Virus record (IMG/VR): IMGVR_UViG_2974606035_000001
Span: 3,086 to 67,085 of that record
Direction: 5' to 3' (one strand)
DNA: 64,000 nucleotides
Source: a virus
Taxonomy: Duplodnaviria > Heunggongvirae > Uroviricota > Caudoviricetes > Demerecviridae
The stretch's first letter is position 1. Every line of letters starts with the position of its first letter. The notes below the pieces were generated by a model that saw nothing but the letters and a program-made list of their open reading frames with translations, made no database searches and had not been told where the DNA came from. The position numbers and the translations under genes were made by a program. Shown piece by piece: positions 25,846 to 52,467 of this stretch.

Positions 25846-26060
25846 CAAATTCTTTAGTTTACTAAGGCTATTAGCTCGGCGTAACTACAGCACCTTCGCT
25901 TCGAGCGGAAGGAACCGCGTCATCTCGCAAACCCGATACACTATTCAGTTGCCGCTGAATCTAGTGGACTAATCTAGAACTTCTCCCGAATCGTAGGGAT
26001 CGTGCTTTTTGGCAGCCAGTCCTAGGTCGAGCTAATACCTTAGTGAACTATGATGAGGAT

Positions 26061-26113
26061 TTCTCCTCATCAATTTATATAAATATTATAACAAGAAATT
26101 AAGCATCAAGCAA
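26061..26113 (-). promoter_or_regulatory. early promoter (TTGCTT-17-TATAAT + leader) with no ORF downstream; likely drives tRNA operon 25194-25845
   Basis: consensus copy located inside 3' end of 122-aa ORF, pointing into tRNA genes. Confidence 0.5.
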
Positions 26114-26474
26114 GTACATTTTTAGCGATTTCTTGCAGTTCCTTTACATCACGAACGTAAAGGTAATCAGAGCTTCCAGAGTGCATACTTTGCATAACTA
26201 CACCTTCATCTGGTGCATTATCCTTCAGAGTAATTCCTAACCAGAACTCGGCAAAACTAGGTGTTATCTCACCTTGACTTGCCTTGAATACATCATATTC
26301 TGTAAGTTCTTGACCAGTAGATAATCCCAAATAGACAGAACTAAGATCTATCTCTTTATGAGACTCATAAAACTCCGTTAGATCTTTCTCCATATCCCAA
26401 CCATGCTGTAACGCGAACTCCATTGCCACATGACTGAAATAACCTTGAATCTTGCTTGATAATTGCATTTGCAA
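26106..26474 (-). CDS. hypothetical acidic protein (122 aa)
   Basis: ORF track. Confidence 0.5.
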   Translation of the reverse strand: MQMQLSSKIQGYFSHVAMEFALQHGWDMEKDLTEFYESHKEIDLSSVYLGLSTGQELTEYDVFKASQGEITPSFAEFWLGITLKDNAPDEGVVMQSMHSGSSDYLYVRDVKELQEIAKNVLA

Positions 26475-26493
26475 TTCCTTATTTTGAGTTAAT

Positions 26494-26567
26494 TGGTACT
26501 CGGTGATAGAATCGAACTATCGCAACCGCCGTGTAAAGACGGGGTTCTCCCATTAAACTAACCGAGC
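26494..26567 (-). tRNA. tRNA-Val (UAC)
   Basis: loop TTTACAC; T-arm GATAG/TTCGATT/CTATC. Confidence 0.5.
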
Positions 26568-26571
26568 AATT

Positions 26572-26650
26572 TGGTAGATCGCCTGGGACTCGAACCCAGA
26601 ACCTTCCGATTAAAAGTCGGATGCTACTAAACCTATTGAGCTAGCGATCT
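26572..26650 (-). tRNA. tRNA-Lys (UUU)
   Basis: perfect acceptor AGATCGC/GCGATCT; loop CTTTTAA. Confidence 0.55.
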
Positions 26651-26839
26651 ATTAGTAACCATTATACACTTCTTTAATAGAGTGGACTTTTAAGTAAGGG
26701 TGATTAGTACTAAACTCTACCATTACTTCATCCCAATTTTTACCATAATGAGCGAGTAAGGATTTTGGTGTATTCTTACCTAAACGTTTGTCACTTACTA
26801 CTAATCGAAATACTTTCATTTCGAAATCCTCTATTAAAA

Positions 26840-26915
26840 TGGTAGCGGGTTCCAGTACTGCCCTGGACTTACTTAGCTTATGAGACTAAGAAGAACTCTA
26901 TGCCTCCCACCCGCA
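26840..26915 (-). tRNA. tRNA anticodon CAU (Met/Ile2) with atypical T-loop
   Basis: loop CTCATAA; T-loop GGCAGTA unusual. Confidence 0.35.
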
Positions 26916-26921
26916 ATTGTT

Positions 26922-26997
26922 TGGTCAGTGCGGCAGGACTCGAACCTGCGACCCGAAGCATCCAAGGCTCCCACGCTACCAACTGCGCTACGCACTG
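26922..26997 (-). tRNA. tRNA-Pro (UGG)
   Basis: perfect acceptor CAGTGCG/CGCACTG; loop CTTGGAT. Confidence 0.55.
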
Positions 26998-27457
26998 TTA
27001 ATTTTGTTAATTTTGTTAACTCACTTTATAAAATATATTATACAGAGAATTAAACATAATAGCAAATAAATTTTTAATAAATTTACTTATTGTGTAGGCC
27101 ACCTGGAGGCTACCAACCACACGGCTGACAAAGAAGTTTGCGAGACTTCTCTTAACTGCCAGAATAGACCCGCCGATCTATCGGAACCTACATAATAAGT
27201 AAACTTTATAGTGTCATTCTAGACAGGACTCGAACCTGTTATCACTTGTGCGGACTTACGAGAACCATTCTTTCACTCGAATCGAACGAGCTTCTGCCCT
27301 CGCCAAGCTGGTTTCCCCATCAACCACGCTAGAATGTTTGATTGTTTTCAGTGCAAGAGTCCGAGTCTTGGACACGACCGCTTCGCAAGTACATAGGCAG
27401 CTTATCATGAGTCGGCACTTCCGAATTGCTAGCTCCGTGTTCTGCACTGAGATTTTG

Positions 27458-27805
27458 TTAATTTAATAGTAAAGTACGATCTACTTCACCATTAATTGTT
27501 CGGCATTCTTCTGGAATTGCTGGTGTAGTCTTATATTCCCACCATTCAGAACCATCATATTCACCACGTTCTAACCAAGTTCCATCGGCAAACCATACAT
27601 TACCATAAAGTAGTTGTCCACCATAACCAGAATCATACTCAAAGTCTAGGTTATTAAGAAAATCCACAATATCTTCTTCTGTATACCCCAGAGGTAATAC
27701 CCAAACTTTTTTGTCCCCATAATACCCGAATTCTATTTTAATACACTTAACTTCAGAATTAGTATTTTTTAAGGCAAGTAACAACTCTTCTTTAGCATTA
27801 CGCAT
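27458..27805 (-). CDS. hypothetical protein (115 aa), Trp/Tyr-rich
   Basis: ORF track. Confidence 0.5.
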   Translation of the reverse strand: MRNAKEELLLALKNTNSEVKCIKIEFGYYGDKKVWVLPLGYTEEDIVDFLNNLDFEYDSGYGGQLLYGNVWFADGTWLERGEYDGSEWWEYKTTPAIPEECRTINGEVDRTLLLN

Positions 27806-27831
27806 AGTATATTTCTCGTGCTAGTTTAATT

Positions 27832-27908
27832 TGGCGCGACCGATGGGATTTGAACCCACATTCCCTCCCGTGACAGGGGAGTACCATTACCAAGCCAGCC
27901 CCGGTCGC
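27832..27908 (-). tRNA. tRNA-Asp (GUC)
   Basis: perfect acceptor GCGACCG/CGGTCGC; loop CTGTCAC. Confidence 0.6.
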
Positions 27909-27917
27909 ATAATTCAT

Positions 27918-28103
27918 TTACTCAGCTTTGAGTTTTTCAATAGCTGCATTAAGTTCCTTAAGAAACTCTTTTCGTACATTAAGACGGTTGAGACTTACTA
28001 GTATATCATGTTTAAGTTCTTCGATGTATTTCTTCTCAACTTCAATATTGTTGATAGTGCTATCACGATGAACTTCTAGCTGCGCAATTACATTCTTGGA
28101 CAT
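27918..28103 (-). CDS. small coiled-coil protein (61 aa)
   Basis: ORF track. Confidence 0.4.
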   Translation of the reverse strand: MSKNVIAQLEVHRDSTINNIEVEKKYIEELKHDILVSLNRLNVRKEFLKELNAAIEKLKAE

Positions 28104-28120
28104 GCTTGTTTCCTCAGTTA

Positions 28121-28318
28121 TTAATGAAAACGGTATCTGTGGCTGAATTCGATATCAGCTTTTGCATCTGGAGCCATGCCAGCTTCAACACATTTAGCTT
28201 TAACTTCCGGCAGAAGTTCTACATCGTAGAAATAAAGCCATTCAATCTCACCTTCCCAGCCTTCCCAGGATTTACAGATCGCACTTTCAATACCAGTTGC
28301 TATAACACGATTTTGCAT
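28121..28318 (-). CDS. small acidic protein (65 aa)
   Basis: ORF track; promoter consensus 28349-28378. Confidence 0.4.
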   Translation of the reverse strand: MQNRVIATGIESAICKSWEGWEGEIEWLYFYDVELLPEVKAKCVEAGMAPDAKADIEFSHRYRFH

Positions 28319-28408
28319 TCGTTAACTCCTTCATCAATTTATATAACTATTATATCAGAAATTTAAAGCAAAAGGCAAGTACATTTTTAAAAATTCTGTT
28401 TGGAGGAG

Positions 28409-28615
28409 CTAAACTCCAGATTCTTCAGCCAAGTCTAGACTAATAAGAGATATAGCCATAATTGCTGCTCCATGTTCTTTTTCTCCAGTCTCTTTAGCTA
28501 GAGTTATAATATCAAGAAATTGCTTATGAAAATCCGCAACCTCTTGAGTTATACCTGCCTCAGCAATCATGCCTTTAAGCATGAAACGTTGTGCAGTGAT
28601 TTCAGGATTAGCCAT
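28409..28615 (-). CDS. small protein (68 aa)
   Basis: ORF track. Confidence 0.4.
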   Translation of the reverse strand: MANPEITAQRFMLKGMIAEAGITQEVADFHKQFLDIITLAKETGEKEHGAAIMAISLISLDLAEESGV

Positions 28616-28790
28616 CTTGTTTCTCCAGTTTCATCTTTAATAGTCTACAAATAAAATCAATGTCTTCATCCGTGCCTAGATCTCTATCTTCAAGAGTTGC
28701 CTTGAAGTTTTTAGTTAATTCCATGAGGATAACTTCTCTAGAACGACGTGTTGGCGGAGGTGGATGTCTATACATCTTATTTCCTTAATT

Positions 28791-28865
28791 TGGTGGGTCG
28801 GAGGAGAATCTAACTCCTACTCATTAGCTTATGAGGCCACCGCTTTAACTTTAAGCTACCGACCC
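28791..28865 (-). tRNA. tRNA anticodon CAU (Met/fMet-like loop CUCAUAA)
   Basis: perfect acceptor GGGTCGG/CCGACCC. Confidence 0.5.
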
Positions 28866-28871
28866 TATGTT

Positions 28872-28965
28872 TGGAGGAAGATGCCAGACTCGAACTGGCA
28901 CACCGTGTTTCCACAGTTACTGGCTGTTTAGCAAACAGCTCCCTTACCTTTAGGGTTAATCTTCC
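28872..28965 (-). tRNA. tRNA-Ser (GCU), class II, 94 nt
   Basis: perfect acceptor GGAAGAT/ATCTTCC; loop TTGCTAA. Confidence 0.5.
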
Positions 28966-28980
28966 GAATTTATAAAATAT

Positions 28981-29009
28981 ATTATATTAGAAATTTAGCT
29001 TCATAGCAA
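28981..29009 (-). promoter_or_regulatory. early promoter copy directed into tRNA genes 28791-28965
   Basis: TAGCAA(rc TTGCTA)-17-ATTATA(rc TATAAT). Confidence 0.5.
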
Positions 29010-29505
29010 GAAAATTTTTCAAGTTTTCGGTAGACATCTCATCTACATCTACAGGGGAAACAAAGCCGTTTAATTTTCTAGCAAATTTTTCACCCGCAGG
29101 ATCGTTGTCTCCGACAGCTACCAATTTAAAAGGTAATAATTTCAGTTGCTTTAATAACGCTTTTCCTGGAGAAGAACCTAACATTGCCAGGGCTGGATAA
29201 CCAGCGTTATGTAACGCAACTGCCTTAAATACAGATTCAGCGATCAATACTACTTTTTCAGCTCCATTGAGAGTTTCTAGTCCCCATACACACTGTGTAT
29301 TAGAATAGGTAAAATATTTAGCCTCAGAGGGGCACTTACCATGACCTTTTGGAGCAGAAGGATTATACGTCTGATAGCCTCTCAACATCCCAGAGAAGTC
29401 ATACAACGGGACTGTTAGCCACCCTTCTGGACTTAACCAGCAATGATATTTATCTATATCAAATCCCCTAGATAAGAGGTGCTGTGTTAGCTCATCAACA
29501 TTCAT
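28987..29505 (-). CDS. Toprim-domain protein (DnaG-like catalytic core, ~173 aa from ATG 29505)
   Basis: VVLIAESVFKA...VAVGDNDPAGEKFARK; promoter+leader consensus 29512-29565 fixes start. Confidence 0.5.
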   Translation of the reverse strand: MNVDELTQHLLSRGFDIDKYHCWLSPEGWLTVPLYDFSGMLRGYQTYNPSAPKGHGKCPSEAKYFTYSNTQCVWGLETLNGAEKVVLIAESVFKAVALHNAGYPALAMLGSSPGKALLKQLKLLPFKLVAVGDNDPAGEKFARKLNGFVSPVDVDEMSTENLKNFLAMKLNF

Positions 29506-29682
29506 ATTTGGTTCCTCTCTCAAATTTATAGATATATTATACAGAGAATTTATCATTCGAGCAATCAAATTTTTTAACTTTTTAGAGGAAAATCGTAGGG
29601 CACTTAAGGGTAGCAGATAAGTGGTGAGGACCAAAATTTGTGACCCCACTAAAAATCCGGGGGCAATTTTTAAAGACCCCTT

Positions 29683-29715
29683 GACATTTTCGCTGGGGTA
29701 GTGTAAAGTATATGT
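29683..29715 (+). promoter_or_regulatory. sigma70-like promoter TTGACA-17-TAAAGT for plus-strand island
   Basis: ttgacattttcgctggggtagtgtaaagt. Confidence 0.4.
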
Positions 29716-29772
29716 TATGGATGAGTGATCAAAGAGACACACATTTTCTATATACTAGGAGGTGTCAAAAAA

Positions 29773-30759
29773 ATGACAGAAGAAGTAGCTAAGAGTCCTG
29801 AGACCGTCGCTAGCGTTGCAGCAGAACTGCACCGTCACGAGGAATCAGATAAGAAAAAGTGGGAGAAGGTCAGAGCCTACGAAGAAAAACATCGTGAACA
29901 TGATGATGAAGAAGATGACGATGATGAACATTGTCATAAATATGGAAAACATAAAATGCAAGAACCAGTAAACGTATTCACTAGTGGCTTCCCTGGCCTA
30001 CTGGGTGGTTACCCAGCAAACGCAGGTGCTTTCGGTGGTGAAGGTATGGGACTATTCGGAGCTATCCTAATCGGTGCTCTATTAACAGGCGGATTCGGTG
30101 GTTTCGGTGGATTCGGTGGACGTGGTGTAGTTGGTGATGGTACCGCAGTTGATGCAGTACTTCAGAACCAAGATACCGCTAGTATTCTAGCAGCTATTAA
30201 CACTACTCGTACAGAAGCTAATCAGGGTACTGGAGCTGTTTTAAGCGCAGTTAACAATGGTTTTAGCCAGACATCCCAAAACCAGAGCCGTGATACTCAG
30301 TCTGTACTAACTACGATCTATGGTACGGGTGCTAATCTGTCTAATCAAATCTGCCAGGAAACTCGCAACGTTATTCAGGGTCAGTTCGATCTTTCTCGCC
30401 AGATTGATCAATCTTTCGCAGCTAATCAGATAGCTCGTGCACAGGATAAGTTTGATTCTGCACAGATCGCTTTCCAGCAGACTTTACAAACTAATAACCA
30501 GTTTACCGCTGTTCAGGCTCAGATGTGTGCTAACCAGAACTCTCTGGAACGCCAGATCGCTGAATGTTGCTGTGAACTTCAGACTGCGATCGCTGGTGTA
30601 ACTACTGCGCGTATCCAGGATGAGTTAGATGCATGTCGCCTACGTGAAGCAATCGCTGCGGGTAATGGTGCTAACGGTCAGGTAATTAATCAAATCGCTG
30701 TAAGTCTTGGTGCTATCACTCAGACTCTGGCTGGTCTGCAGGCTAAACTGCCGGCTTAA
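29773..30759 (+). CDS. low-complexity protein: acidic/His-rich N-term, GGFGGFGGFGG Gly-Phe repeats, long Q/N/S/T-rich predicted helical tail (329 aa)
   Basis: ORF track 29725-30759; RBS TAGGAGGTG before ATG 29773; GC-rich codon usage unlike neighbours. Confidence 0.55.
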   Translation: MTEEVAKSPETVASVAAELHRHEESDKKKWEKVRAYEEKHREHDDEEDDDDEHCHKYGKHKMQEPVNVFTSGFPGLLGGYPANAGAFGGEGMGLFGAILIGALLTGGFGGFGGFGGRGVVGDGTAVDAVLQNQDTASILAAINTTRTEANQGTGAVLSAVNNGFSQTSQNQSRDTQSVLTTIYGTGANLSNQICQETRNVIQGQFDLSRQIDQSFAANQIARAQDKFDSAQIAFQQTLQTNNQFTAVQAQMCANQNSLERQIAECCCELQTAIAGVTTARIQDELDACRLREAIAAGNGANGQVINQIAVSLGAITQTLAGLQAKLPA

Positions 30760-30780
30760 TATTAAGGGGAGGAGCCCATT

Positions 30781-31197
30781 ATGAGTAAATATGGTTTTGT
30801 AAATAACGGACTTAATCAAAGTATGGGCTCCCAGCAGCCCATTCCGGGTCTGGATAACCCCTACTTACAACAGTTGCAACAGCGTTTAGCAGAAGCGCAA
30901 CAGATGCAGCAACAACTCCAGCAAAATCCTGGAAGTGTGAGTCCTATGCAAATGATGCAGCAAATGAGCGGGCAGTCGCAAATGCCTCAACAAATGCAGC
31001 AACAGGTGCCTCAGCAGCAAGTTCAGCAACAAACCCAACAACCGCAGGTTTCTGCGGAAGGACAGGCAGTACTAGCCCTTTTCGAAGACTTCGCAAAGAC
31101 AGAGGATGGGAAACAGCTTGTATCACTTATGGGTAAGTTTAATAGCTTCTGCCAAAGCCAAATTGCAAAAGCTCAAAATAGCGGTAATAACTCCTAA
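30781..31197 (+). CDS. Gln-rich (prion-like) protein, 138 aa
   Basis: ORF track; GGAGG RBS; >30% Q in central region. Confidence 0.5.
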   Translation: MSKYGFVNNGLNQSMGSQQPIPGLDNPYLQQLQQRLAEAQQMQQQLQQNPGSVSPMQMMQQMSGQSQMPQQMQQQVPQQQVQQQTQQPQVSAEGQAVLALFEDFAKTEDGKQLVSLMGKFNSFCQSQIAKAQNSGNNS

Positions 31198-31206
31198 GGA
31201 GGAATT

Positions 31207-31401
31207 ATGTGTTGCAGAAAATCTGTTTCGTGCTGCCCAATGCCTGTAGCACGTTGTTGCTCTCCAGCAATGTTTACGCAAATACCGGCGTTCAATCCGT
31301 TTGCCTTTAAGCCTACTCTTATCCTGCCCCCTAGAGTAGATTTTCAGTCAAGATTGGCCTCCCGTATGGGTGGTTGCTGTACACCGAGAGTATGGTTCTA
31401 A
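31207..31401 (+). CDS. Cys-rich small protein (64 aa; CC, CC, CC, CC pairs)
   Basis: ORF track; AAGGAGG RBS; followed by terminator. Confidence 0.45.
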   Translation: MCCRKSVSCCPMPVARCCSPAMFTQIPAFNPFAFKPTLILPPRVDFQSRLASRMGGCCTPRVWF

Positions 31402-31410
31402 ACCAAAAAC

Positions 31411-31447
31411 AAAAGCCCCTGCCGAAAGGTAAGGGGCTTTTTCTTTT
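31411..31447 (+). terminator. rho-independent terminator AAGCCCCT..AGGGGCTT + TTTCTTTT
   Basis: seen directly. Confidence 0.65.
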
Positions 31448-31461
31448 GCCTTAAATACAGA

Positions 31462-31497
31462 AAAGCCCGCGCTCTCGGAGGAAACGCGGGCTTGGTT
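31462..31497 (-). terminator. rho-independent terminator AGCCCGCG..CGCGGGCT + TTTTCTG (minus)
   Basis: seen directly. Confidence 0.6.
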
Positions 31498-31516
31498 CAA
31501 AGATTACGTGTAACTA

Positions 31517-32464
31517 TTACTTATTACGCATATCCATAATCATTTGGCCATCATAGCCAGTGCCAACTACAGTCTGAGGTACACCACCTTGATACTTCTG
31601 AGCACGAATCATTTCAACTTCCAGTTGCTTCCAGCGAATCATCTCAGGAGTAATGGTACGTTGTAATGCGGCGTTAGCTTCAGCTTCTTTCTTAGCTGCG
31701 TACAGTTTAGCATCTGCGTCACGTTCATTAGCAATAGCTTGGTTGTTGCGAGCTTCACGGTCTGCTTCTGCTTGTTTAACCTTCTGCTGTGCTTCTTGCT
31801 CAACGCGGGCCAGTTCAGCTTTAGCAGCATTAACTTGCTCTTCACGAACTTTGGTATTCTGTACCTGTTCCATGATTACTGGCGGCAAGGTAATATCCTG
31901 AAGGAATACCTGCTTAACTGTGTAACCATATGGGCGCGCATATTCTTCAACTTCCTGTTGAATTGCAGTTTGCAATTGAGCCTGAATTTTAGCATCAAAC
32001 AAATCTTGTGCTTTAGGTACAGACTTACCAAACTCACGAATAGTAGACAGTAATTTTTCAGTTACATACTTGTCTAGTGCCTGATCCTGAGTACCTGCGT
32101 TAATACGGTTAATCGGTGCCTTAGAACCATCAAATTGCAACATAACAGTCAGGTCAACAGTGGATTTAAACTTATCCTGACTAGGAACCTGAAGTTTATC
32201 TAATTTTACAGCAATATCTTTTGTACTAAAAGTATCGAAAGATGCAAACGGGTTTACAAGATGGAAACCCGGCAATACTGGATTAGGATCTACTTTACCC
32301 AGGAATGTTTGAGTTTTAACCGTACCATCAGAAACAATAGTATATGAATTAAAGGCTAGAATCAAGCCTGCTAAACCAACTACAGCACCAATACCCCAAC
32401 GTTTAATAGTACGAATTACTTTCTGCTCAGAAGTCAGTTCTTTCATATTTTTAGTATTAAACAT
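31517..32464 (-). CDS. SPFH/band-7 (prohibitin/HflKC-like) membrane protein, 315 aa
   Basis: N-terminal TM, SPFH-like core, long Ala/Glu/Gln coiled-coil tail. Confidence 0.55.
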   Translation of the reverse strand: MFNTKNMKELTSEQKVIRTIKRWGIGAVVGLAGLILAFNSYTIVSDGTVKTQTFLGKVDPNPVLPGFHLVNPFASFDTFSTKDIAVKLDKLQVPSQDKFKSTVDLTVMLQFDGSKAPINRINAGTQDQALDKYVTEKLLSTIREFGKSVPKAQDLFDAKIQAQLQTAIQQEVEEYARPYGYTVKQVFLQDITLPPVIMEQVQNTKVREEQVNAAKAELARVEQEAQQKVKQAEADREARNNQAIANERDADAKLYAAKKEAEANAALQRTITPEMIRWKQLEVEMIRAQKYQGGVPQTVVGTGYDGQMIMDMRNK

Positions 32465-32498
32465 ATATTTCCTTTGTTTTAGTTACAGTTAATAAAAT

Positions 32499-32573
32499 TG
32501 GCCGAGGTGACAGGATTCGAACCTGCATAAAGGAATTTAGAAGACTCCTGCCTCTCCCTTAGACTACACCCCG
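32499..32573 (-). tRNA. tRNA-Arg (UCU)
   Basis: T-arm CAGG/TTCGAAT/CCTG; loop CTTCTAA. Confidence 0.5.
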
Positions 32574-33223
32574 TTTAAGTATTTTTAAGAACTCTCGTAA
32601 AAACTCTTAAAAATACAGACGATACCGGGAGAGTCATAAGTCTCACTCATTAAGTATTTCAAGACAAAATACAGTAACGTCTATTATTTTCCAGTTTAAG
32701 TCAGGGTGACTTAGTGGTTATGTCCTGCGGTATATTGAGGACTCGGTTAGGCTTGGGGTCATGACTTCCCACCTTTTGCTGCTACTCAACAGGAGTTATC
32801 GCGAATTACCTGTGCTATTGTGCACCATTAGTGACATCTCTCATGTCAGCATTTCCCACTTTGTGGATAGCTTGAAAAACTACTCCGATATGGAGAAAGA
32901 ACTTCACTATCCTAGAATACCTTCTAAAGTTCTTCTTTAGCCTGGACATAGTTAAATCGTAATAAAACTATTCAGCAGACTGGTTGGTTAGTCTGGAACC
33001 AACTACCGCGTGGTTTAGGCAGTGCGCAACTAACCTCGGAAGCTTTTACGTTAAAAGCACCAGTTATCCAGTTCTTACCGACCGTAGGATTCGAACCTAC
33101 ATCTTCCACCAGTTACGGCTTGATAATACCAATTATACTAGGACGGCAGTGTTACTACATAAGTGATTTCCACACCCCACTATTTATAAATTAGATAGAA
33201 ATTACTCTCTAATTTATAAATAT

Positions 33224-33252
33224 ATTATACAGAATTTAAAGGCATTTAGCAA
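33224..33252 (-). promoter_or_regulatory. early promoter copy with no ORF downstream (points into 32.6-33.2 kb tRNA-like region)
   Basis: TAGCAA-17-ATTATA on plus = TTGCTA-17-TATAAT on minus. Confidence 0.5.
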
Positions 33253-33260
33253 ATAAATTT

Positions 33261-33942: not shown

Positions 33943-34410
33943 TTAAGTTTTAGTGACAACAGGTTTATAAAATGTATGTCCCTTAATCTTAGTTGTTTTC
34001 TTAAATTTCTTTGTCCAGTAAGGTTTATCTTTACCACTATGGAAGTATAGCGCTCCATGTGTAGGATCTTGTGGTAAATCAACGTAGTATATCACTCTAG
34101 CTAAATTCTTAGCGGTTTGCCAAGCCTCATCAGTTTTATCAACTTTTGGTCTCTTAGATACCCAAGAGAACTGGTTAGACTGATATACTACTTTACAGTA
34201 GGAATCTGGGAATTTACCGGAGTTTACACGGTTTTTAGTAACATGTGCAATCGCCGTCATTCCCTTTATGCCCTCACCACGACTTTCGAAATAGATATTT
34301 TTAGCAATGCAATCTATTTCTTTTGCATCGTGCGATGCCTGACTACTAAAGCTGAAGGTAAGGGCAGCTACTAAAAGCAAAGCTGCCTTCATTCTTTTTA
34401 CTCCTGCCAA
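33943..34410 (-). CDS. secreted cell-wall hydrolase, SleB/CwlJ-like (Hydrolase_2) with signal peptide
   Basis: NIYFESRGE..GM.AIAHV..NR..FP.S.C.VV.Q..QFS motif. Confidence 0.55.
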   Translation of the reverse strand: MAGVKRMKAALLLVAALTFSFSSQASHDAKEIDCIAKNIYFESRGEGIKGMTAIAHVTKNRVNSGKFPDSYCKVVYQSNQFSWVSKRPKVDKTDEAWQTAKNLARVIYYVDLPQDPTHGALYFHSGKDKPYWTKKFKKTTKIKGHTFYKPVVTKT

Positions 34411-34715
34411 TCATATTCAATGCGATTGGGGTTTTCTTTGTACCCTAAGTCAAGCAAATCATTACGCATATGTTGCTTAGCTACGGGATTCGAGGTTACT
34501 AGTACCACTTTCTTTGGTCTCTGCCCAAATTCTAAGAGTAAACGAAGAATTTGATAACCTTCCATACCATCTACAGCCAGATCGTTATCACAATAAACAA
34601 AGTGCCCAGTAGTATCAGTTCCCTTCAGAAACTCAATAGCGGCTTCTGGGGTTCGAATGATAATGTCCATTCCGTGAAGATTACGCACATCATCAATCAA
34701 AATATGAAAAGTCAT
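34398..34715 (-). CDS. stand-alone CheY-like receiver (REC) domain-like protein (105 aa)
   Basis: ILIDD (acidic pair), CDNDLAVDGMEGY (phospho-Asp position), VVLVTSNP (Thr), AK (Lys) in canonical order. Confidence 0.45.
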   Translation of the reverse strand: MTFHILIDDVRNLHGMDIIIRTPEAAIEFLKGTDTTGHFVYCDNDLAVDGMEGYQILRLLLEFGQRPKKVVLVTSNPVAKQHMRNDLLDLGYKENPNRIEYDWQE

Positions 34716-34745
34716 AATAGCCTCGTTTCATCAATTTAAAAATAT

Positions 34746-34774
34746 ATTATACATATAATTTAGTAGATTAGCAA
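34746..34774 (-). promoter_or_regulatory. early promoter copy (TTGCTA-17-TATAAT)
   Basis: consensus. Confidence 0.55.
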
Positions 34775-35157: not shown

Positions 35158-35796
35158 TTACTCTACTTCAATGAAGGTAGAGGCGTTAGACTCGGACAGA
35201 ACAAAGTCAACGTTTGTTGCAAAGTCCTGGTATTCCTCGTCATGCTGCTTAATCAGCTTTTCCAGTTCCAGCGGATCGATCAAGAATGGAGTATTCTTGA
35301 GTTCCAGCAGATTGAGCTGCATTTTAACTTCATCTTCGGAAGTTTTCTTATCACGGGTAGCCATGCTATCCTGCAAACGCTCATATTTAGCATCAAACTG
35401 TGCTTTCTGCGTATTAAACTTAACCGTGGCGGCATGGAACTGCTTACGCATGTTAGCCAGCAGTTGGGCTTTAAGTTCCATAGAACGCTTAGCTTCAATT
35501 GCTTCCGCAACAGTCATTTTACGAGAACCAATCTCAACGATTGTTTCCGCATTGCTTTTAATCAGAGCAGCTTTGATACGATCACGCTGGGACATCATAT
35601 CCAGCAGAGACTGGAAATCAGTCTTAATACGAGTAGACAGATCAGCTACTTCGATTGCAGCGCCAACTACAACCTGGTTTTTATCCTTACCTTCACCAAC
35701 AGCGATCAGAAGCTGCTGTTCAGTAGCTTTACGGATTTTAGCTTCCAGAGATTTGATAGTTGCCAGAGCGCGAGTTTTAGAAATACGAGTAGTCAT
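35158..35796 (-). CDS. coiled-coil protein (212 aa), host-like high-GC codon usage
   Basis: ORF track; overlapping plus-strand ORFs judged spurious. Confidence 0.55.
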   Translation of the reverse strand: MTTRISKTRALATIKSLEAKIRKATEQQLLIAVGEGKDKNQVVVGAAIEVADLSTRIKTDFQSLLDMMSQRDRIKAALIKSNAETIVEIGSRKMTVAEAIEAKRSMELKAQLLANMRKQFHAATVKFNTQKAQFDAKYERLQDSMATRDKKTSEDEVKMQLNLLELKNTPFLIDPLELEKLIKQHDEEYQDFATNVDFVLSESNASTFIEVE

Positions 35797-36102: not shown

Positions 36103-36804
36103 TCAAATTTTCATTTTTTCGATCATAGCTGCAACACAATAGCTCTCAACTAAGGCATCGAATGCTGGGTCGTGCTTAACCGGATAGATCCCATAACGAA
36201 TAGTGTCCATCTTCTCCATTTTAGCTATTGCCCAGCTAATACCTTCGGTCTCTAGAGCTTTATAACTATAACCAGCTTGCATCCAGAGATTACGAAGAGA
36301 TCGAACATTACCCAAGTTCCAGAATTTCCACGGAACTACCTCTTCATTGGTTCCAGCATGGAACGTGTTTGCAGAGTAGATAGTCATATCAAACTCTGGG
36401 CCATTGCCATAGTACAAAGCATTTTCGCCTAGAGCCAACTCCATAATATTTTGAGCCATAGAGTAGGCAGCATAGTTAGAGCCGAGTTTATTAGTGCAAT
36501 GATGTTTACCATTTTGGAAGGCAATCAGTTTTGGATTACGTTCCTTCATAGCTTCCATAATGTGGATAGCAGACGGGCTATTTTTAGCTTGATCCATCCA
36601 GAATGCTAGAGTAGATGCTGTAACTTTGGCACCAGAATTAAGTTGATCTTGTACATCTAAAGTAACAAATACTAGATCAGGGTCTTTGTCAATTCCGTGC
36701 ATAGCCACAAAAGCGAAAGAAGGCATTGCGATATGAGTAGTACCACAATCTCCTGGAGTTCCTAGAGATTCAATATCTAGCATACCAAATGGTTTTACTT
36801 TCAT
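36103..36804 (-). CDS. DEDDh 3'-5' exonuclease (DnaQ/RNase T-like), 233 aa
   Basis: MLDIESLG (DxE), ...H(5)D near C-terminus. Confidence 0.55.
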   Translation of the reverse strand: MKVKPFGMLDIESLGTPGDCGTTHIAMPSFAFVAMHGIDKDPDLVFVTLDVQDQLNSGAKVTASTLAFWMDQAKNSPSAIHIMEAMKERNPKLIAFQNGKHHCTNKLGSNYAAYSMAQNIMELALGENALYYGNGPEFDMTIYSANTFHAGTNEEVVPWKFWNLGNVRSLRNLWMQAGYSYKALETEGISWAIAKMEKMDTIRYGIYPVKHDPAFDALVESYCVAAMIEKMKI

Positions 36805-41680: not shown

Positions 41681-44600
41681 TTAAATAGTACAACCACCGG
41701 ATGCACACCCAGCAGCAGCAGCTTCTTCACCTGCACCTCCACCATTTGCGGTATTGAAGTTAGCATAATACCAAGTTTTCCACCCATACTTAACAGCAGT
41801 CATGAAATCACGAACTACTACTGGGCCAGGAATGATTTCATTCTCAAACTTGGTGTAGTCATAGTACATATTCGTACTGATAGACTGACTGAAGAATTTC
41901 TGCATAGTTGCTACCCATTTGATCCACTCGATACGATCTACATCATAAGCCAGTTTATAGCTCATTAACGTTTCCCAATCGGTTGCACCTGGAGCAATTG
42001 CAATTACTTTATTTACTGCACTACCCTTGATAGATACAATCTTACGAGGCGGTTCAATAGAGTTAGTAACACCTAACAGAACAGAAGAACTTTCCCCTGG
42101 CATCTGAGCAGTCAGAACAGAGTTACGCATACCGTATTTCATAATATCTGCACGCAGAGATTCCCAATCCATTTCTAGACCTACGGATACCAACTCATCA
42201 ACAGTTTTCTTGTACGTGTCGATTACCAGAATTCCTTTAGATGGTTTAGTACGATCAAACCACTCACATGCACCCTGTTCCTTAGCCAGGCGTACAGAGG
42301 CTTTATGCAGGAAGTAAGACAGTTTTTCAGCCTCACGGTGGATCCAGTTACGAGCTTCAATACCTTCGTAAGCCAGACCTTCTGCTGCCATTGCACCTGC
42401 TGCGTTCATTAGGCCAATACCAACATTACGACGTTTCTTAGCCGTATATTCCATAGTTGGGAACGGATAATCCTGAATTTCAATAATTGTATCAACGAAT
42501 TTCAGAAGGATGTAGCAAGTTTTTTCCCACTCAGCCAGAGATTCCATACGCCCAAGTACAACACCACCTAAGTTACACAGAGATACTTCACCAATATCCT
42601 CCGGCTTCATTTGATCAAGCTGCTCTTTTGTCTTATACAGCTCTGTAATATGATGGAACGGGCGTGTAGGCTGAGTAATTTCTACACAGTTACCCGCTAA
42701 AATGCCATTAAATACCCCCAAGTTTAATTTAGGTTCTGTAAAGCAATAGGTATCACTAATACGACCAGTAAACTCAACGTTAGTTACAGTTACAAAACGG
42801 GTTGCATCTCTATTGGGGCGTGTTAGGTTTAAGAGTTTCTCTTTATCCAAAGATAGTCCTAAATCTTTAAGTTTCCAGAAGCCACTACTCCCCACAATAA
42901 GCCTACTAGTCTCCTTGCAGTGGTATAGTTTACTACTACCAGTACCATCTGGTAACTCGTAGTCACCTTCTTGGCGTCCTAAAATAATCTTGCTAGTAAT
43001 CCCCAATTCTAGTAACAAATCCTTCACTTTACTTAGAAAATCAGGCTCTGCCGAAGCAACCACAATACTGGGGGTTGTGCCATTTTTCTGTATGCAGCCA
43101 TCTGCATCTAAATATCCCTCTAACCATTTGATACGGCTATCAATAGTGTATTCTGGGCCAGGTACAAAATACTTCGGCATTAAATCAGACTTAACAATAT
43201 AGCTCAGTCTACCTGTGCTGTCCAGTAATCCACTTCCCTGAATCTCTGCATCAATTTTATCTACTAATGGTAGTTTGCCACCTTTTTCATAGAAGTACAG
43301 CTTAGGTTCTCCATGTCTTCCATAAGTTCCATCTCCAGTGAAGAAACCGTTAGTATAAGGAGATTTTAGTACCATATTTCCATGATCTACAATAGGATTA
43401 CTAAATTTAGGCATTTTCATACCTACTTGCAAGTCTACTGCTCGTACCTCTTCTAGCCCCTGTTTGAGGGAGGTACGACGATCCTCTCTGACATATTTGG
43501 GCTGGTGGTAGAACTTATGATAAAGAGTAGATTCAATAGTAGATCCATCAGAGAATGTGATTTTCATCAACTCCTGAGCTTCCCCAGTTTTAGCAGGGAT
43601 AACTGTTGACCATTCTTGCCCGTTCCAAATCTCTACTTCTTTACCAACTAAATCAATAATCTCTATGTTACCATTTTTGGTTAAAATTTTTGTTTCTGGA
43701 GCTACACAAAGGTTAGTCATACGGATCGGATCAAGGAAGTTACCGTGACGATTAGATTCCCCGATGTGATGAGCATACATACGTCCTGTTTCCATTCGGA
43801 TACGTAGCCAAGTATCTAGGATTTCTTTTGCAGAAACTTTAGGAGCTGCAGGAACTGTTTTTCCTTCGTGGTCGATCTTTGTAAGAGATGCCACACGTTT
43901 CTCCGCTGCCACGTAGATTTCTTCAAATTTAGCCTCGTCATCACTATAAAACGCTTCATGAACTTCTGGAGCATAGAAGTATGACATTAGCGTAATATCT
44001 TCGTTTTTAAGATAACGTTTTAACAAAAGATTGTTAAAGCTCAGAGAATAATCCATCTTATCGATTTTATTCTCATCTGTAGCACGTTGTTGCTTAACCT
44101 GCATCAGTTGAATGATTTCAGGGTCGAAGTATGGATAAGACACTGTAGCAGAACCACCACGACTATTACCACACACAGTAGTGTGACCATTACGACGTAC
44201 TACTAGTTTATTAGTCGGTACTTCTACGCAGTAGACTTTACCACTATACTCAATTTCAGTTTCTTTAATGCCTTCCGCAGTCATATCTACTTGGTCAAAA
44301 TAGACATAACAACGATTTTCAGTACTAGTATTTGAACGCACTCCTGCAATTGCTGCTAGAGCCTGCACCACATGTTGTTGCCCTGCGTGACTTGAGTATT
44401 CTCCAACATTTTCGGATTTCCAGTACCCATCCCACTCCATGATTTCTTTCAATGCTTCTTTCGCAGCATTAGATGTTAAATCCTTCTCTAGCAGGAAAGA
44501 TAAGTCTTTCGAGTAGTATAGCTGCTCATGCCCAATATGAATGGTAGTTACACCTTGTTCATTTAGTTTCTTAGAATATTTAAGACCTAAGTCATCTAAG

Positions 44601-50637: not shown

Positions 50638-50827
50638 GGGTTTAAACGCCGCTTTGGAAAACGCATTAATGCAGCACTGGGAAACTGGCTATAAGGATGG
50701 TGTTGAATCCTGCGCTACTATGCTAGAAGTTATTGCTAATACCTTAATGGAGAAAGGCAATAAAGAATTAGCTGAGCTATTAGACAGTATTGGGCAAAAC
50801 TTCAGAGAACAGGTGAAAAATGCGTAG
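50606..50827 (+). CDS. hypothetical protein (73 aa)
   Basis: ORF track. Confidence 0.45.
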   Translation: MAFSKPMLPDKGLNAALENALMQHWETGYKDGVESCATMLEVIANTLMEKGNKELAELLDSIGQNFREQVKNA

Positions 50828-51638
50828 ATTAATTATTATTAGCGGTGCAGGTTTGAGTGTTGAAAGTGGTGTACGAGCTTTTCGTACTGATACTGCTAGT
50901 GGTAAAGCATTGTGGGATGATTATGATCTAGAAGAAGTATGTAATATTCATGCCTTTCGTGGTAATTTTTATCATAAAACCCATATGTTTTACAACAAGC
51001 GTCGTGAAGAGCTAAAAACTGTTGAACCCAATCTTGCTCATTTGCGTATTGGTGAATGGTATAAACAATACCCTGGTCAAGTAGTAAACTTGACCACTAA
51101 CGTTGATGACCTTATTGAGCGTGCTGGCGTTCCACATAGTGACATTCTACACATTCACGGATATTTAAAAGAGGTTGTTGTAGCTGATAGCTACAATAGT
51201 AGCAACAAACGGATTATTGATGTAGGATACAATTCTATTGATCCAGATGATTATAAATGGGTTAAACCTAATGTAATCTTCTTTGGAGAGCATGCTTCTG
51301 CGTACGCAGAAATGTATAATGTTTTTGATGGTATTACCAGTCAAGATATGATTGTTGTGGTTGGTTGCTCTAATCAAGTAATTAACTTCTACTGGGAATT
51401 ATTTCCTGTTCTTAATAGGACTGCTGCGAAATTTATGGTTGTTAACTACTATGATAGTGCCCTGGCAGCAGAGCCGGGCTATCAAGGTATGACTCGTAGT
51501 GAGATGTACCAACTGGAGGAACGCGGTGTCCCTTACTGGAGTAAAGGTGCGGTAGATGCTTTCAGTGACCCTGATTTTATTGCTCGTGTAAAAGCTCATT
51601 TAGAGGGTAGACCTTATGTGTCGAGAAGCAAGAAATAA
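50820..51638 (+). CDS. Sir2-family (sirtuin-like) NAD-dependent deacylase/ADP-ribosyltransferase
   Basis: GAGLSVESGVRAFR, NVDDLIERAG, HIHG motifs. Confidence 0.6.
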   Translation: MRRLIIISGAGLSVESGVRAFRTDTASGKALWDDYDLEEVCNIHAFRGNFYHKTHMFYNKRREELKTVEPNLAHLRIGEWYKQYPGQVVNLTTNVDDLIERAGVPHSDILHIHGYLKEVVVADSYNSSNKRIIDVGYNSIDPDDYKWVKPNVIFFGEHASAYAEMYNVFDGITSQDMIVVVGCSNQVINFYWELFPVLNRTAAKFMVVNYYDSALAAEPGYQGMTRSEMYQLEERGVPYWSKGAVDAFSDPDFIARVKAHLEGRPYVSRSKK

Positions 51639-51801
51639 TGAATGGGATATTTTTATAACTGAGTCTGGCACTTGGTGTTATAGGTTTGCCTATAGATTTC
51701 CTAATGTAAAAGAAAGATTAGGCAACACATATAAAATTATCTATACTACGGATAATACATGGTTATCATCTGGAGAAGAGGAGAAACAGGTATGTCCATA
51801 G
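51616..51801 (+). CDS. small protein (61 aa)
   Basis: ORF track. Confidence 0.35.
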   Translation: MCREARNNEWDIFITESGTWCYRFAYRFPNVKERLGNTYKIIYTTDNTWLSSGEEEKQVCP

Positions 51802-51974
51802 TTAAATCTGTATATACACATCCCGATGATATATTTGTATGGGCAGATGGTAGTTGGTGCTATCGATGTGAGTTATGGGAAATGGACTATAAATCCGATG
51901 ACTATGGTGTTATATACGTCGATACGGTTGAGTATGATACGTTCTTAGAAAGGAACAAAAATGGAAATAAGTAA
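51759..51974 (+). CDS. small acidic protein (71 aa)
   Basis: ORF track. Confidence 0.4.
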   Translation: MVIIWRRGETGMSIVKSVYTHPDDIFVWADGSWCYRCELWEMDYKSDDYGVIYVDTVEYDTFLERNKNGNK

Positions 51975-52467
51975 TACTCCAGTTATTTTTCTAGACATTG
52001 ATGGGGTGCTCAATTCGAGCATCTCCCACCATCATGCGCCTGATGATGAAAAGATTTTCTTTGGAAGTGACTGGGTTTTCAAACCACTTCTCAAGGCTTT
52101 TCAGGACTTTATTCGTCCTTCCCCAATAATGATTGTTGGGGTATCATCTTGGTTCTCTGTTAGAAATGAGATGGAGAACGTTCAGATTATGACCGGATTA
52201 GGTCTTATCGATCGTTTTCTTGGTACAACGGATTTTACGGGGGGTGGGTTATCTAGGGGTAATTCTGTTCTTCGCTTCGTTGAAAAGCATAAACTCAAAC
52301 ATTGGTGTGTTCTGGATGACGCTGGTGCTATGATGTACCAGTATCCAACGGTTATAGTCAATGGTAGAACTGGAATAAATCTTCAAGATTTAATGGCTGT
52401 TAGCTATATGCTAGAATTTAGTCCAGATCTTGAAATGTGTAAAGCCCTACAACAATTTAAGGTGTAA
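51961..52467 (+). CDS. HAD-superfamily phosphatase-like protein
   Basis: FLDIDGVL motif I; VLDDAG late motif. Confidence 0.5.
   Translation: MEISNTPVIFLDIDGVLNSSISHHHAPDDEKIFFGSDWVFKPLLKAFQDFIRPSPIMIVGVSSWFSVRNEMENVQIMTGLGLIDRFLGTTDFTGGGLSRGNSVLRFVEKHKLKHWCVLDDAGAMMYQYPTVIVNGRTGINLQDLMAVSYMLEFSPDLEMCKALQQFKV

What the first reader, a model, noticed from the sequence alone, without database searches (positions are those of the whole stretch)
34398..34715. Stand-alone receiver-domain-like protein in a lytic phage
The 105-aa product has the conserved residues of a two-component REC domain in canonical order and spacing (features entry 34398-34715 lists them). It has no output domain and no cognate kinase in the window. 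It could act as a phosphate sink or decoy for a host two-component or chemotaxis pathway, or be a REC-fold enzyme. Either would be an unusual host-takeover mechanism.
Basis: seen in the sequence. Interest (0 to 1): 0.65.

Follow-up and report, generated by a model that had tools for sequence, protein, structure and literature searches.

The report
Known phage cREC receiver-like enzyme
This small T5-like phage protein does have a receiver-domain fold, but it belongs to the already described, still untested "cREC" family, predicted to be an enzyme that trims phosphate ends on damaged RNA, not a decoy for host signalling.

Summary
The window is Salmonella phage SP3, a T5-like virulent phage. The ORF is real: minus strand, 34398-34715, 105 aa, ortholog of T5.084, under purifying selection (dN/dS 0.13 against T5).

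- **Family.** It matches Pfam PF20274 (cREC_REC) at 51.8 bits against a cut-off of 27. It does not match PF00072 at E<=1. Orthologs at 98% identity already carry the cREC name in UniRef.
- **Residues.** The DD pair, the beta3 Asp and the beta4 Thr are kept. The beta5 Lys is not conserved. Family-specific invariants are added: R11, D17, R21, a D-x-D motif and N76.
- **Context.** In other phages cREC sits inside RNA-repair operons (HAD_PNKP-cREC-Rnl1-kinase), next to Sir2-Nudix, or near RtcB. It is also enriched in or beside tRNA gene arrays: 12 of 37 lineages have at least 3 tRNA genes within 5 kb, and in comparable locus sets 8/33 against 1/120 control loci, as in this window.

Best reading: an Asp-based phosphoesterase acting on RNA or ADP-ribose phosphate ends. 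The decoy idea is disfavoured. The family is known but experimentally untested.

The parts
34398..34715 (-). cREC-family ORF, 105 aa plus stop. It is SP3 HOT55_gp080 and the ortholog of T5.084.
   Evidence: ORF list and sequence. PF20274 at E 1.3e-13, 51.8 bits against a cut-off of 27, residues 4-87. PHROG 1479. 100% match to the SP3 record. T5.084. dN/dS 0.13.
34683..34694 (-). Codons for D8-D9-V10-R11: the acidic pair right after beta1 plus the family-invariant Arg.
   Evidence: D8 and D9 are 99% conserved and R11 94% in 143 family members. D8/D9 align to CheY D12/D13. Beta1 spans residues 4-7 in the model.
34653..34667 (-). Codons for D17 to R21 (D-I-I-I-R): beta2 flanked by family-specific D17 (87%) and R21 (99%).
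   Evidence: Conservation table. Beta2 spans residues 18-20 in the model.
34581..34589 (-). Codons for D43-N44-D45 (GAT AAC GAT on the minus strand): the D-[H/N]-D motif right after beta3. D43 is the position equivalent to the receiver phospho-acceptor. D45 is an invariant Asp at the D+2 position.
   Evidence: Read directly from the sequence. D43 is 100% conserved, position 44 is H 63% or N 34%, D45 is 99%. D43 aligns to CheY D57.
34488..34496 (-). Codons for T74-S75-N76: the conserved T/S at the end of beta4 plus the family-invariant Asn.
   Evidence: T/S74 is 100% conserved and N76 99%. T74 aligns to CheY T87. Beta4 spans residues 69-72.
34721..34724 (-). Shine-Dalgarno GAGG, 5 nt upstream of the ATG.
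   Evidence: Read from the sequence.
34746..34774 (-). Sigma-70-like promoter candidate, TTGCTA-17 nt-TATAAT (10 of 12 matches).
   Evidence: Consensus scan; the number of sites in the region is not above the shuffle expectation. The position corresponds to the promoter annotated just upstream of T5.084 in NC_005859.
33943..34392 (-). Downstream gene in the same transcription unit: SleB-like cell-wall hydrolase with a signal peptide. Its ATG is 5 nt after the cREC stop. It is a neighbour; no functional link is shown.
   Evidence: PF07486 at E 2.4e-25. RefSeq start. The same pairing is seen in T5 and in Erwinia phage KEY.
23607..33147 (-). Phage tRNA gene array (12 ARAGORN tRNAs plus weaker tRNA-like Rfam hits). 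It ends 1.3-1.8 kb downstream of cREC on the same strand. Context only.
   Evidence: Family-wide enrichment of cREC next to tRNA arrays.
50820..52467 (+). Sir2 (50820-51638) and Swiss-Army-Knife HAD RNA-repair phosphatase (51961-52467), 16 kb away. They are candidate partners in an NAD-dependent RNA-end pathway; this is inferred, not shown.
   Evidence: PF02146 at E 3.2e-24 and PF18143 at E 3.6e-20. This Sir2-HAD pair in T5-like phage SP15 is described in PMC9503650 section 3.7.3.

Best explanation
The gene encodes a stand-alone member of the cREC family (Pfam PF20274). This is a receiver fold cut down to beta1-loop-beta2-alpha2-beta3-alpha3-beta4-alpha4-beta5. It has lost the helices used for kinase docking and output signalling. 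It has kept and extended the acidic pocket.

**Shown here.** Family membership, the fold, the conserved residue set, early-gene placement with its own promoter-like site at the edge of the tRNA array, and the family's contexts.

**Inferred.** The protein is a small Asp-based phosphoesterase.
- D8/D9 would hold a divalent metal.
- D43 would attack a phosphate.
- The invariant D45 at D+2 would act as general acid/base, as in the DxD motif of HAD phosphatases such as the T4 Pnkp phosphatase domain.
- R11 and R21 would replace the missing beta5 Lys in binding the phosphate.

The most likely substrates are the phosphate ends left on RNA by metal-independent RNases (2',3'-cyclic phosphate, or 3'- or 2'-phosphate on broken tRNAs). 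An alternative is the ADP-ribose 1''-2'' cyclic phosphate made when a 2'-phosphate is removed with NAD+. In a T5-like phage it would act early in infection to keep the tRNA pool usable. It may work together with the phage Sir2 and HAD_SAK phosphatase and a host ligase.
For: - **Family.** PF20274 at 51.8 bits against a cut-off of 27. All 128 aligned relatives hit PF20274.
- **Invariant residues.** D8, D9, R11, D17, R21, D43, D45, G53, P67, T/S74 and N76 across 143 divergent members.
- **RNA-repair and NAD contexts in other phages.**
  - Ochrobactrum phage OC has overlapping genes HAD_PNKP - cREC - Rnl1 - AAA_33 kinase, with a metallophosphatase and a Macro protein nearby.
  - E. coli jumbo phage WPEC5 has Sir2 - Nudix - cREC.
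  - Streptomyces phage Peebs has cREC inside a tRNA/tmRNA array, 2.6 kb from an Rnl1-type ligase.
  - Across 37 lineages the recurrent neighbours are a small metallophosphoesterase (5 lineages), RtcB (2), Sir2, Q_salvage and a SLOG domain.
- **tRNA arrays.** 15 of 37 lineages have a tRNA within 5 kb and 12 of 37 have at least 3. In comparable locus sets the figures are 9/33 and 8/33 for cREC against 7/120 and 1/120 for thymidylate-synthase control loci; Fisher p = 0.0014 and 1.7e-5.
- **This window.** cREC lies 1.3-1.8 kb from the end of the tRNA array. Nearby are a YqeY/GatB-like protein, an Rv2179c-like exoribonuclease and an SPFH protein. Sir2 and HAD_SAK_2 are in the same genome.
- **Published prediction.** The same activity is predicted in PMC7824862 and PMC9503650.
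- **Selective pressure.** T5-like phages are known targets of tRNA-cleaving defences (PMC11464382, PMC11555353).
Against: - No cREC protein has been tested biochemically in the literature I could search. PMC9503650 says so explicitly.
- In T5-like phages the gene is not adjacent to a ligase, a kinase or Sir2. Its direct neighbour is a secreted cell-wall hydrolase.
- No RNA ligase is annotated in the 43.7 kb I inspected.
- In my pooled sample of about 20 metagenomic loci no single partner dominated.
- Linkage to RtcB is awkward for a simple 'open the cyclic phosphate for an ATP-dependent ligase' role, because RtcB uses cyclic or 3'-phosphate ends directly (general knowledge).
- The one T5-relevant tRNA nuclease whose end chemistry I checked, PARIS AriB, leaves 3'-OH and 5'-phosphate, which need no such healing (PMC12409363).
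- tRNA arrays lie in accessory-gene-rich regions, so part of the enrichment may be positional rather than functional.
- The residue roles are inferred from sequence and secondary structure only. I could not measure distances in the model.
Confidence: 0.55

Rival explanations
1. Anti-defence enzyme that destroys nucleotide immune signals. It would hydrolyse cyclic ADP-ribose isomers, ADP-ribose cyclic phosphate or cyclic(-phosphate) oligonucleotides made by host systems such as Thoeris, CBASS or type III CRISPR. It would not repair RNA.
For: - The founding papers list cADPr as an alternative substrate and note Nudix fusions.
- I saw Sir2-Nudix-cREC in phage WPEC5.
- The pooled neighbours included a Tad3 Thoeris inhibitor, an HD_4 alarmone-type hydrolase and YAcAr SLOG domains.
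- The gene is early and has its own promoter.
Against: - The strongest operonic cases are RNA-repair operons.
- Enrichment in tRNA arrays points to RNA.
- Each signal-related neighbour occurred in only one or two lineages.
Confidence: 0.14
2. One reading: a phosphate sink or decoy that takes phosphoryl groups from host histidine kinases, HPt proteins or CheA, and so rewires host two-component signalling or chemotaxis.
For: The acidic pocket (D8, D9, D43) and T74 occupy the receiver positions. Autophosphorylation on D43 is therefore chemically conceivable. The fold is receiver-like.
Against: - Alpha1 and alpha5 are absent and the beta5 Lys is not conserved.
- PF00072 is not matched.
- The family is reported never to occur with histidine kinases. 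No kinase is annotated near it here or appeared in the loci I examined.
- The same signature occurs in phages of unrelated hosts. A decoy would be expected to track host-specific kinase interfaces.
- The invariant D+2 Asp and the extra Arg and Asn residues look catalytic.
Confidence: 0.03
3. Non-catalytic module: a small binding protein that uses the receiver-like pocket to bind a phosphorylated ligand, a tRNA end or a host protein. It would regulate or scaffold rather than catalyse.
For: The protein is very small (105 aa) and almost always stand-alone. It has no demonstrable activity. Many degenerate receivers act as binding modules (general knowledge).
Against: Pseudo-receivers usually lose the acidic pocket. 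Here eleven positions, including five acidic and two Arg residues, are 87-100% conserved across sequences only about 30-45% identical overall. That pattern is typical of an active site.
Confidence: 0.12
4. Mononucleotide phosphatase or nucleotidase that feeds phage nucleotide metabolism (HAD-like DxD chemistry on NMPs or dNMPs).
For: The D-x-D motif is present. Several loci carry thymidylate synthase, dCMP deaminase, DHFR or adenylosuccinate synthetase within a few kb, including this window.
Against: These neighbours are common in large phages and are not operonically coupled to cREC. The tightest couplings are to RNA ligase, PNK parts and Sir2-Nudix.
Confidence: 0.07
5. Metal-dependent ribonuclease that processes the phage's polycistronic tRNA precursors. 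The acidic cluster would act as a two-metal site.
For: Five conserved acidic residues. Frequent location inside tRNA arrays.
Against: The fold search gives receivers, not PIN, Toprim or RNase H-type nucleases, among the top hits. Operons with ligase plus kinase plus phosphatase fit an end-healing role better.
Confidence: 0.06

Closest known systems
cREC (cyclic-phosphate processing Receiver) domain family, Pfam PF20274, defined by Iyer et al. 2021 (PMC7824862) and 2022 (PMC9503650)
   Same: - HMM match well above threshold.
- Same conserved signature DD..R..D..R...D[HN]D[LM]G...G...P...[TS]xNP.
- Stand-alone protein of about 100 aa, phage-borne.
- Orthologs at 98% identity are already named this way in UniRef.
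   Different: - In T5-like phages the gene is not next to a ligase, Sir2 or Nudix as in the published neighbourhoods. It sits at the edge of the tRNA array, paired with a secreted SleB-like hydrolase.
- G47 of the family is Ala here, and position 44 is Asn rather than His.
Canonical two-component receiver domains (CheY, Spo0F; Pfam PF00072)
   Same: - Acidic pair after beta1, Asp after beta3, Thr after beta4 and an aromatic residue on beta5, all in equivalent positions.
   Different: - No alpha1 and no alpha5, and no conserved beta5 Lys.
- Extra invariant R11, D17, R21, D45 and N76.
- No PF00072 match for this protein.
- Never partnered with histidine kinases.
HAD-superfamily polynucleotide 3'-phosphatases (phosphatase domain of T4 Pnkp, PF25109; Swiss-Army-Knife HAD, PF18143)
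   Same: - Proposed chemistry: a D-x-D motif with a nucleophile Asp and an acid/base Asp two residues on, a conserved T/S, and a second acidic pair for Mg2+ (sequence; the HAD mechanism is from general knowledge).
- Occurs in the same operons.
   Different: - Not a HAD fold member. The D-x-D follows beta3, not beta1, there is no cap or flap, and the top structural hits are receivers.
- It co-occurs with a HAD_PNKP gene rather than replacing it in phage OC, so its activity is probably not identical.
2H phosphoesterases (LigT/CPDase type cyclic phosphodiesterases)
   Same: Predicted to do the same job: opening 2',3'-cyclic or ADP-ribose 1''-2'' cyclic phosphates in RNA-repair and NAD contexts.
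   Different: Unrelated fold and chemistry. The two H-x-T/S motifs are absent: the four His residues (H4, H14, H38, H82) are followed by IL, GM, FV and MR (read from the sequence).

Membership tests
cREC (Pfam PF20274) | Profile HMM match above the curated threshold | tested here: met
   51.8 bits against a cut-off of 27, E 1.3e-13, residues 4-87 of 105. All 128 aligned relatives match as well.
cREC (Pfam PF20274) | Conserved aspartates of the receiver pocket plus the family signature | tested here: met
   D8, D9, R11, D17, R21, D43, D45, G53, P67, T74 and N76 are all present in the query. Each is 87-100% conserved in 143 members.
cREC (Pfam PF20274) | Receiver-like Rossmannoid fold | tested here: met
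   [not shown]
cREC (Pfam PF20274) | Genomic association with RNA-repair or NAD/ADP-ribose-processing genes, and never with histidine kinases | tested here: inconclusive
   For the family this is met in phage OC, WPEC5, Peebs and several metagenomic loci. At this locus the partners are only in the same genome: Sir2 and HAD_SAK_2 lie 16 kb away and the tRNA array is adjacent. No kinase is annotated.
cREC (Pfam PF20274) | Cyclic-phosphate phosphodiesterase activity (the predicted function that names the family) | not testable with these tools
   No experiment was found in the searchable literature. PMC9503650 states that the domain is experimentally uncharacterized.
Two-component receiver domain (Pfam PF00072) | Profile HMM match | tested here: not met
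   No PF00072 hit at E<=1 for the query. Only 13 of 128 relatives give weak hits, best 8.8e-5.
Two-component receiver domain (Pfam PF00072) | Complete (beta-alpha)5 fold including alpha1 and alpha5 | tested here: not met
   The model has a 10-residue loop in place of alpha1 and ends after beta5. hhalign shows an 8-residue deletion at alpha1 and stops at CheY residue 111.
Two-component receiver domain (Pfam PF00072) | Acidic pair after beta1, phospho-acceptor Asp after beta3, T/S after beta4 | tested here: met
   D8/D9, D43 and T74 align to CheY D12/D13, D57 and T87. All are conserved.
Two-component receiver domain (Pfam PF00072) | Invariant Lys at the end of beta5 | tested here: not met
   CheY K109 aligns to N95, a variable column. 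K93 is K in 21% of the family and K/Q/T among close orthologs.
Two-component receiver domain (Pfam PF00072) | Phosphotransfer from a cognate histidine kinase or HPt protein | not testable with these tools
   This needs biochemistry. No kinase gene is annotated in the inspected part of the genome.
HAD phosphatase superfamily | HAD Rossmannoid fold with the DxD motif after the first strand, plus squiggle, flap and cap | tested here: not met
   [not shown]
2H phosphoesterase superfamily | Two H-x-T/S motifs | tested here: not met
   None of the four His residues is followed by x-T/S (sequence).

The most novel reading that the evidence does not exclude
cREC proteins are a distinct class of RNA-end phosphoesterase built on a stripped receiver fold. 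They would work through an aspartyl-phosphate intermediate and would be dedicated to maintaining phage (and host) tRNAs. This would explain why their genes are embedded in tRNA arrays in many unrelated phages. In T5-like phages this would be a third counter-measure to tRNA-targeting immunity, beside tRNA replacement and T4-style Pnkp/Rnl repair. T5.084 would be the tractable model for it.
Probability: 0.3. Interest if true: 0.6.

Novelty: already known. Interest (0 to 1): 0.3.

Why it matters
The family is widespread: 381 clusters at 50% identity, 3244 clusters at 90%, and about 500-560 phage records in the annotated phage collection. It is present in the classic model phage T5, yet no member has been tested.

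If the prediction holds, it shows a signalling fold re-used as an RNA-repair or nucleotide-processing enzyme. It would also add a component to how virulent phages keep translation running under tRNA-targeting defences.

The practical value of this check is mainly corrective. The protein should be annotated as cREC, not as a response regulator, and the decoy idea need not be pursued first. The tRNA-array linkage measured here gives a concrete first experiment.

Tried and rejected
- **PDB sequence searches.** Searching with the protein alone found nothing meaningful. A 128-sequence profile gave only non-significant receiver hits, E 0.03-0.4. There is therefore no solved cREC structure.
- **First homolog search.** The word-based search returned only T5-like orthologs. 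The exhaustive profile search and a second profile search were needed to see the family.
- **Locus retrieval.** The search for related loci with the broad alignment failed for lack of a conserved stretch. A narrower alignment gave only 5 loci in cellular genomes and 18 viral loci.
- **Structure library.** The afdb50 fold library was unavailable.
- **Contexts with no clue.** The jumbo-phage loci L002 and nt-1, the Microbacterium phage and DLP_6 show only unnamed small genes.
- **Pooled neighbours.** A Pfam scan of 148 neighbour proteins showed no dominant partner family. Clustering neighbours across lineages was more informative.
- **Literature.** Searches for experiments on cREC, T5.084 or KVP40.0304 found nothing. 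Burroughs and Aravind 2016 (NAR 44:8525) could not be read. Its link between SPFH/Band-7 proteins and tRNA-like RNAs is therefore cited from memory only.
- **Considered and rejected.** TIR, PIN or Toprim folds are not among the top structural hits. 2H membership fails because there are no HxT/S motifs. HAD membership fails because the fold and the motif position are wrong.
Full report
**What is there.** The window matches Salmonella phage SP3 at 100% identity (genus Tequintavirus, a T5-like virulent phage; record coordinate = window + 3085). The finding's coordinates hold a minus-strand ORF of 105 aa, ATG at 34715 and stop included at 34398. A GAGG Shine-Dalgarno sequence lies 5 nt upstream. 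A TTGCTA-17-TATAAT promoter-like site lies at 34774-34746. It coincides with the promoter annotated upstream of the T5 ortholog T5.084, which that record describes only as 'hypothetical protein, similar to KVP40.0304'. The gene is annotated as hypothetical in SP3 (HOT55_gp080). It is conserved in more than 440 T5-like phage records. Against T5 it differs by 11 synonymous and 6 non-synonymous changes, dN/dS 0.13. It is a real, selected gene.

**Family.** Pfam places it in PF20274, cREC_REC ('Cyclic-phosphate processing Receiver domain'), at 51.8 bits against a cut-off of 27. PF00072 (Response_reg) is not reported at E<=1. PHROGs gives family 1479, function unknown. UniRef already names orthologs at 98% identity 'Cyclic-phosphate processing Receiver domain-containing protein'. 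An exhaustive profile search finds 381 representatives at the 50% level. They are almost all stand-alone proteins of about 100 aa, with a few N-terminal extensions. A second profile search finds 3244 clusters at the 90% level, and all 120 listed carry PF20274. All 128 aligned members hit PF20274. Only 13 give weak PF00072 hits.

| This protein | CheY |
|---|---|
| D8/D9 | D12/D13 |
| D43 | D57 |
| T74 | T87 |
| Y92 | Y106 |

The same alignment shows an 8-residue deletion where alpha1 should be. It ends at CheY residue 111, so alpha5 is absent. CheY K109 falls on N95, a variable column.

**Conserved residues.** Across 143 divergent members the near-invariant positions are D8, D9, R11, D17, R21, D43, [H/N]44, D45, G47 (Ala here), G53, P67, T/S74, N76, G91 and Y92. 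K93 is Lys in only 21%. It varies (K/Q/T) even among close orthologs. It is not right about the Lys or the canonical spacing. The invariant Asp at D+2 makes a D-x-D motif. In HAD phosphatases such a motif supplies the nucleophile and the general acid/base (general knowledge). In ordinary receivers that position is variable. Together with two invariant Arg and one Asn, this looks like an enzyme active site rather than a switch. I could not measure distances in the model, so the pocket geometry is inferred from the positions of these residues at the C-terminal ends of the strands.

**What the literature says.** Iyer, Aravind and co-workers defined cRec as a divergent receiver that is never found with histidine kinases. 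They found it linked to NAD+/ADP-ribose-processing enzymes and RNA ligases. They predicted that it resolves 2',3'-cyclic phosphates on RNA or ADP-ribose 1''-2'' cyclic phosphate (PMC7824862 sections 3.4.8 and 3.4.9; PMC9503650 sections 3.4.5 and 3.7.3). They state that it is experimentally uncharacterized. I found no later experimental work. They also describe a Sir2 plus Swiss-Army-Knife HAD pair in the T5-like phage SP15. That pair is present in this window at 50820-51638 and 51961-52467, 16 kb from cREC.

**Independent context check.** In Ochrobactrum phage vB_OspM_OC, cREC sits between overlapping genes for the Pnkp phosphatase domain (HAD_PNKP) and Rnl1. An AAA_33 kinase and a metallophosphatase follow, and a Macro-type gene is 3 kb away. 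In E. coli jumbo phage WPEC5 the order is Sir2 - Nudix (Nudt16-like) - cREC. In Streptomyces phage Peebs it lies inside a tRNA/tmRNA array, 2.6 kb from an Rnl1-type ligase. A pooled Pfam scan of 148 neighbours from about 20 metagenomic loci showed no dominant partner. Clustering neighbours across 37 cREC lineages did show recurrent families: a small calcineurin-like phosphoesterase (5 lineages), RtcB (2), Sir2, queuosine-salvage protein (2), YAcAr SLOG (2) and DUF932 (3). This supports the published RNA-repair/NAD theme. It also shows that the family has no single obligate partner.

**tRNA arrays.** In this window cREC lies 1.3-1.8 kb beyond the last tRNA or tRNA-like gene of a 10-kb array on the same strand. 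Of 37 cREC lineages (60% identity clusters), 15 have a tRNA gene within 5 kb. Twelve have three or more, often on both sides of cREC. For a control I retrieved 120 thymidylate-synthase-motif loci from the same collection in the same way, with similar locus lengths. They gave 7/120 and 1/120, against 9/33 and 8/33 for the comparably retrieved cREC loci (Fisher p = 0.0014 and 1.7e-5). The sets are not phylogenetically corrected, and tRNA arrays sit in accessory-rich regions, so this is suggestive rather than proven. It does point to tRNA as the object of the activity. The papers I read did not emphasise it.

**Local neighbourhood.** All these genes are on the minus strand, listed from upstream to downstream:
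- an Rv2179c-like 3'-5' exoribonuclease (36103-36804);
- a 60-aa ORF;
- a 212-aa protein of PHROG 1491;
- a 442-nt gap holding the promoter;
- cREC;
- a SleB-like hydrolase with a signal peptide, 5 nt further on;
- DUF7616;
- a YqeY/GatB-like protein;
- the equivalent of T5 'RNAX';
- tRNA-Arg;
- an SPFH/Band-7 protein.

The order from the exonuclease gene to the YqeY-like gene and the tRNA genes beyond it is kept in the divergent Erwinia phage KEY.

**Most likely mechanism.** The following is inferred. The protein is a small metal-assisted Asp phosphoesterase. It is made early in infection. It heals phosphate-bearing RNA ends (2',3'-cyclic, 3'- or 2'-phosphate) on tRNAs cut by metal-independent host nucleases, or it clears the ADP-ribose cyclic phosphate by-product of NAD-dependent 2'-phosphate removal by the phage Sir2. 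T5-like phages are documented targets of tRNA-cleaving defences (PMC11464382, PMC11555353). PARIS AriB, however, leaves 3'-OH ends that need no such healing (PMC12409363). Points against the mechanism are: no biochemistry exists, no ligase or kinase is adjacent here, the pairing with a secreted hydrolase is odd, and the RtcB linkage is awkward for a pure cyclic-phosphate-opening role.

**Rivals.**
- A nucleotide-signal-degrading anti-defence enzyme. Single cases of Tad3, HD_4, SLOG and Nudix neighbours support it.
- A non-catalytic binder.
- A mononucleotidase.
- A tRNA-precursor nuclease.
This is the least likely, because the docking helices and the Lys are missing and the signature is the same across phages of unrelated hosts.

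**Verdict.** Of the two interpretations, the 'REC-fold enzyme' option is supported and the decoy option is not. The object is a member of an already named family, so it is not new. What remains open is the family's actual activity. The T5 ortholog and the tRNA-array linkage offer a direct test of that.

Noticed in passing
window 34398-34715 with 23607-33147; loci L002, L015, L028, L031, L032, L044, L046, L048, L061, L066, L070: cREC genes are enriched inside or beside phage tRNA gene arrays. 12 of 37 lineages have at least 3 tRNAs within 5 kb. In comparably retrieved locus sets the figures are 8/33 for cREC against 1/120 for thymidylate-synthase control loci. The two cREC papers I read did not emphasise this.
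   Followed up: yes
window 33943-34392 (-); L020 4578-4994; L032 3531-3989: A peptidoglycan-hydrolase-type gene lies directly next to cREC in three separate lineages. T5-like phages have a SleB-like gene with a signal peptide. IMG/VR contig L020 has a SleB-like gene without a signal peptide. Streptomyces phage Peebs has an NlpC/P60 gene with a signal peptide. No functional link is apparent, and it may be chance.
   Followed up: partly
window 32574-33260 (-): This non-coding stretch corresponds to T5 'RNAX', annotated as a stable RNA of unknown function. It holds a tRNA-like Rfam match at 33076-33147 (35.5 bits) that ARAGORN does not call. It is followed by tRNA-Arg(tct) and, 35 nt later, the SPFH/Band-7 gene (31517-32464). 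From memory, Burroughs and Aravind 2016 linked SPFH/Band-7 proteins with tRNA-like RNAs in RNA repair; I could not read that paper here.
   Followed up: partly
window 50820-53303 (+): Sir2 (PF02146), a Swiss-Army-Knife HAD RNA-repair phosphatase (PF18143) that RefSeq mislabels as a second 'Sir2', and two DUF7415 proteins lie in a row. This is the NAD-dependent RNA-end system described for phage SP15.
   Followed up: partly
window 41681-46054 (-): The ribonucleotide reductase large subunit is 1457 aa and carries a LAGLIDADG_3 domain at residues 976-1061. It therefore contains a homing-endonuclease intein that the annotated T5 nrdA gene, at 2436 bp, is too short to hold.
   Followed up: partly
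protein P0029 (273 aa); phage records OK272477 39673-39969 and OQ291035 39565-39861: In some T5-like phages the cREC reading frame is fused to, or called together with, an N-terminal HNH-endonuclease-like region and is annotated 'HNH endonuclease'. This could be a homing-endonuclease insertion or a gene-calling fusion.
   Followed up: no
window 36103-36804 (-) and 35158-35796 (-): Two annotations look doubtful. The gene labelled 'putative metallopeptidase' or 'exonuclease' matches the Rv2179c-like 3'-5' exoribonuclease domain (PF16473). The 212-aa 'tail fiber protein' (PHROG 1491) lies in the early region among RNA-related genes and has no significant Pfam match (only a marginal hit at E 0.087).
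   Followed up: no
window 23015-23089, 23526-23599 and 25667-25720 (-): Further weak tRNA-like Rfam matches (26-34 bits) lie inside the tRNA array and are not called by ARAGORN. They may be degenerate or unusual tRNA genes.
   Followed up: no
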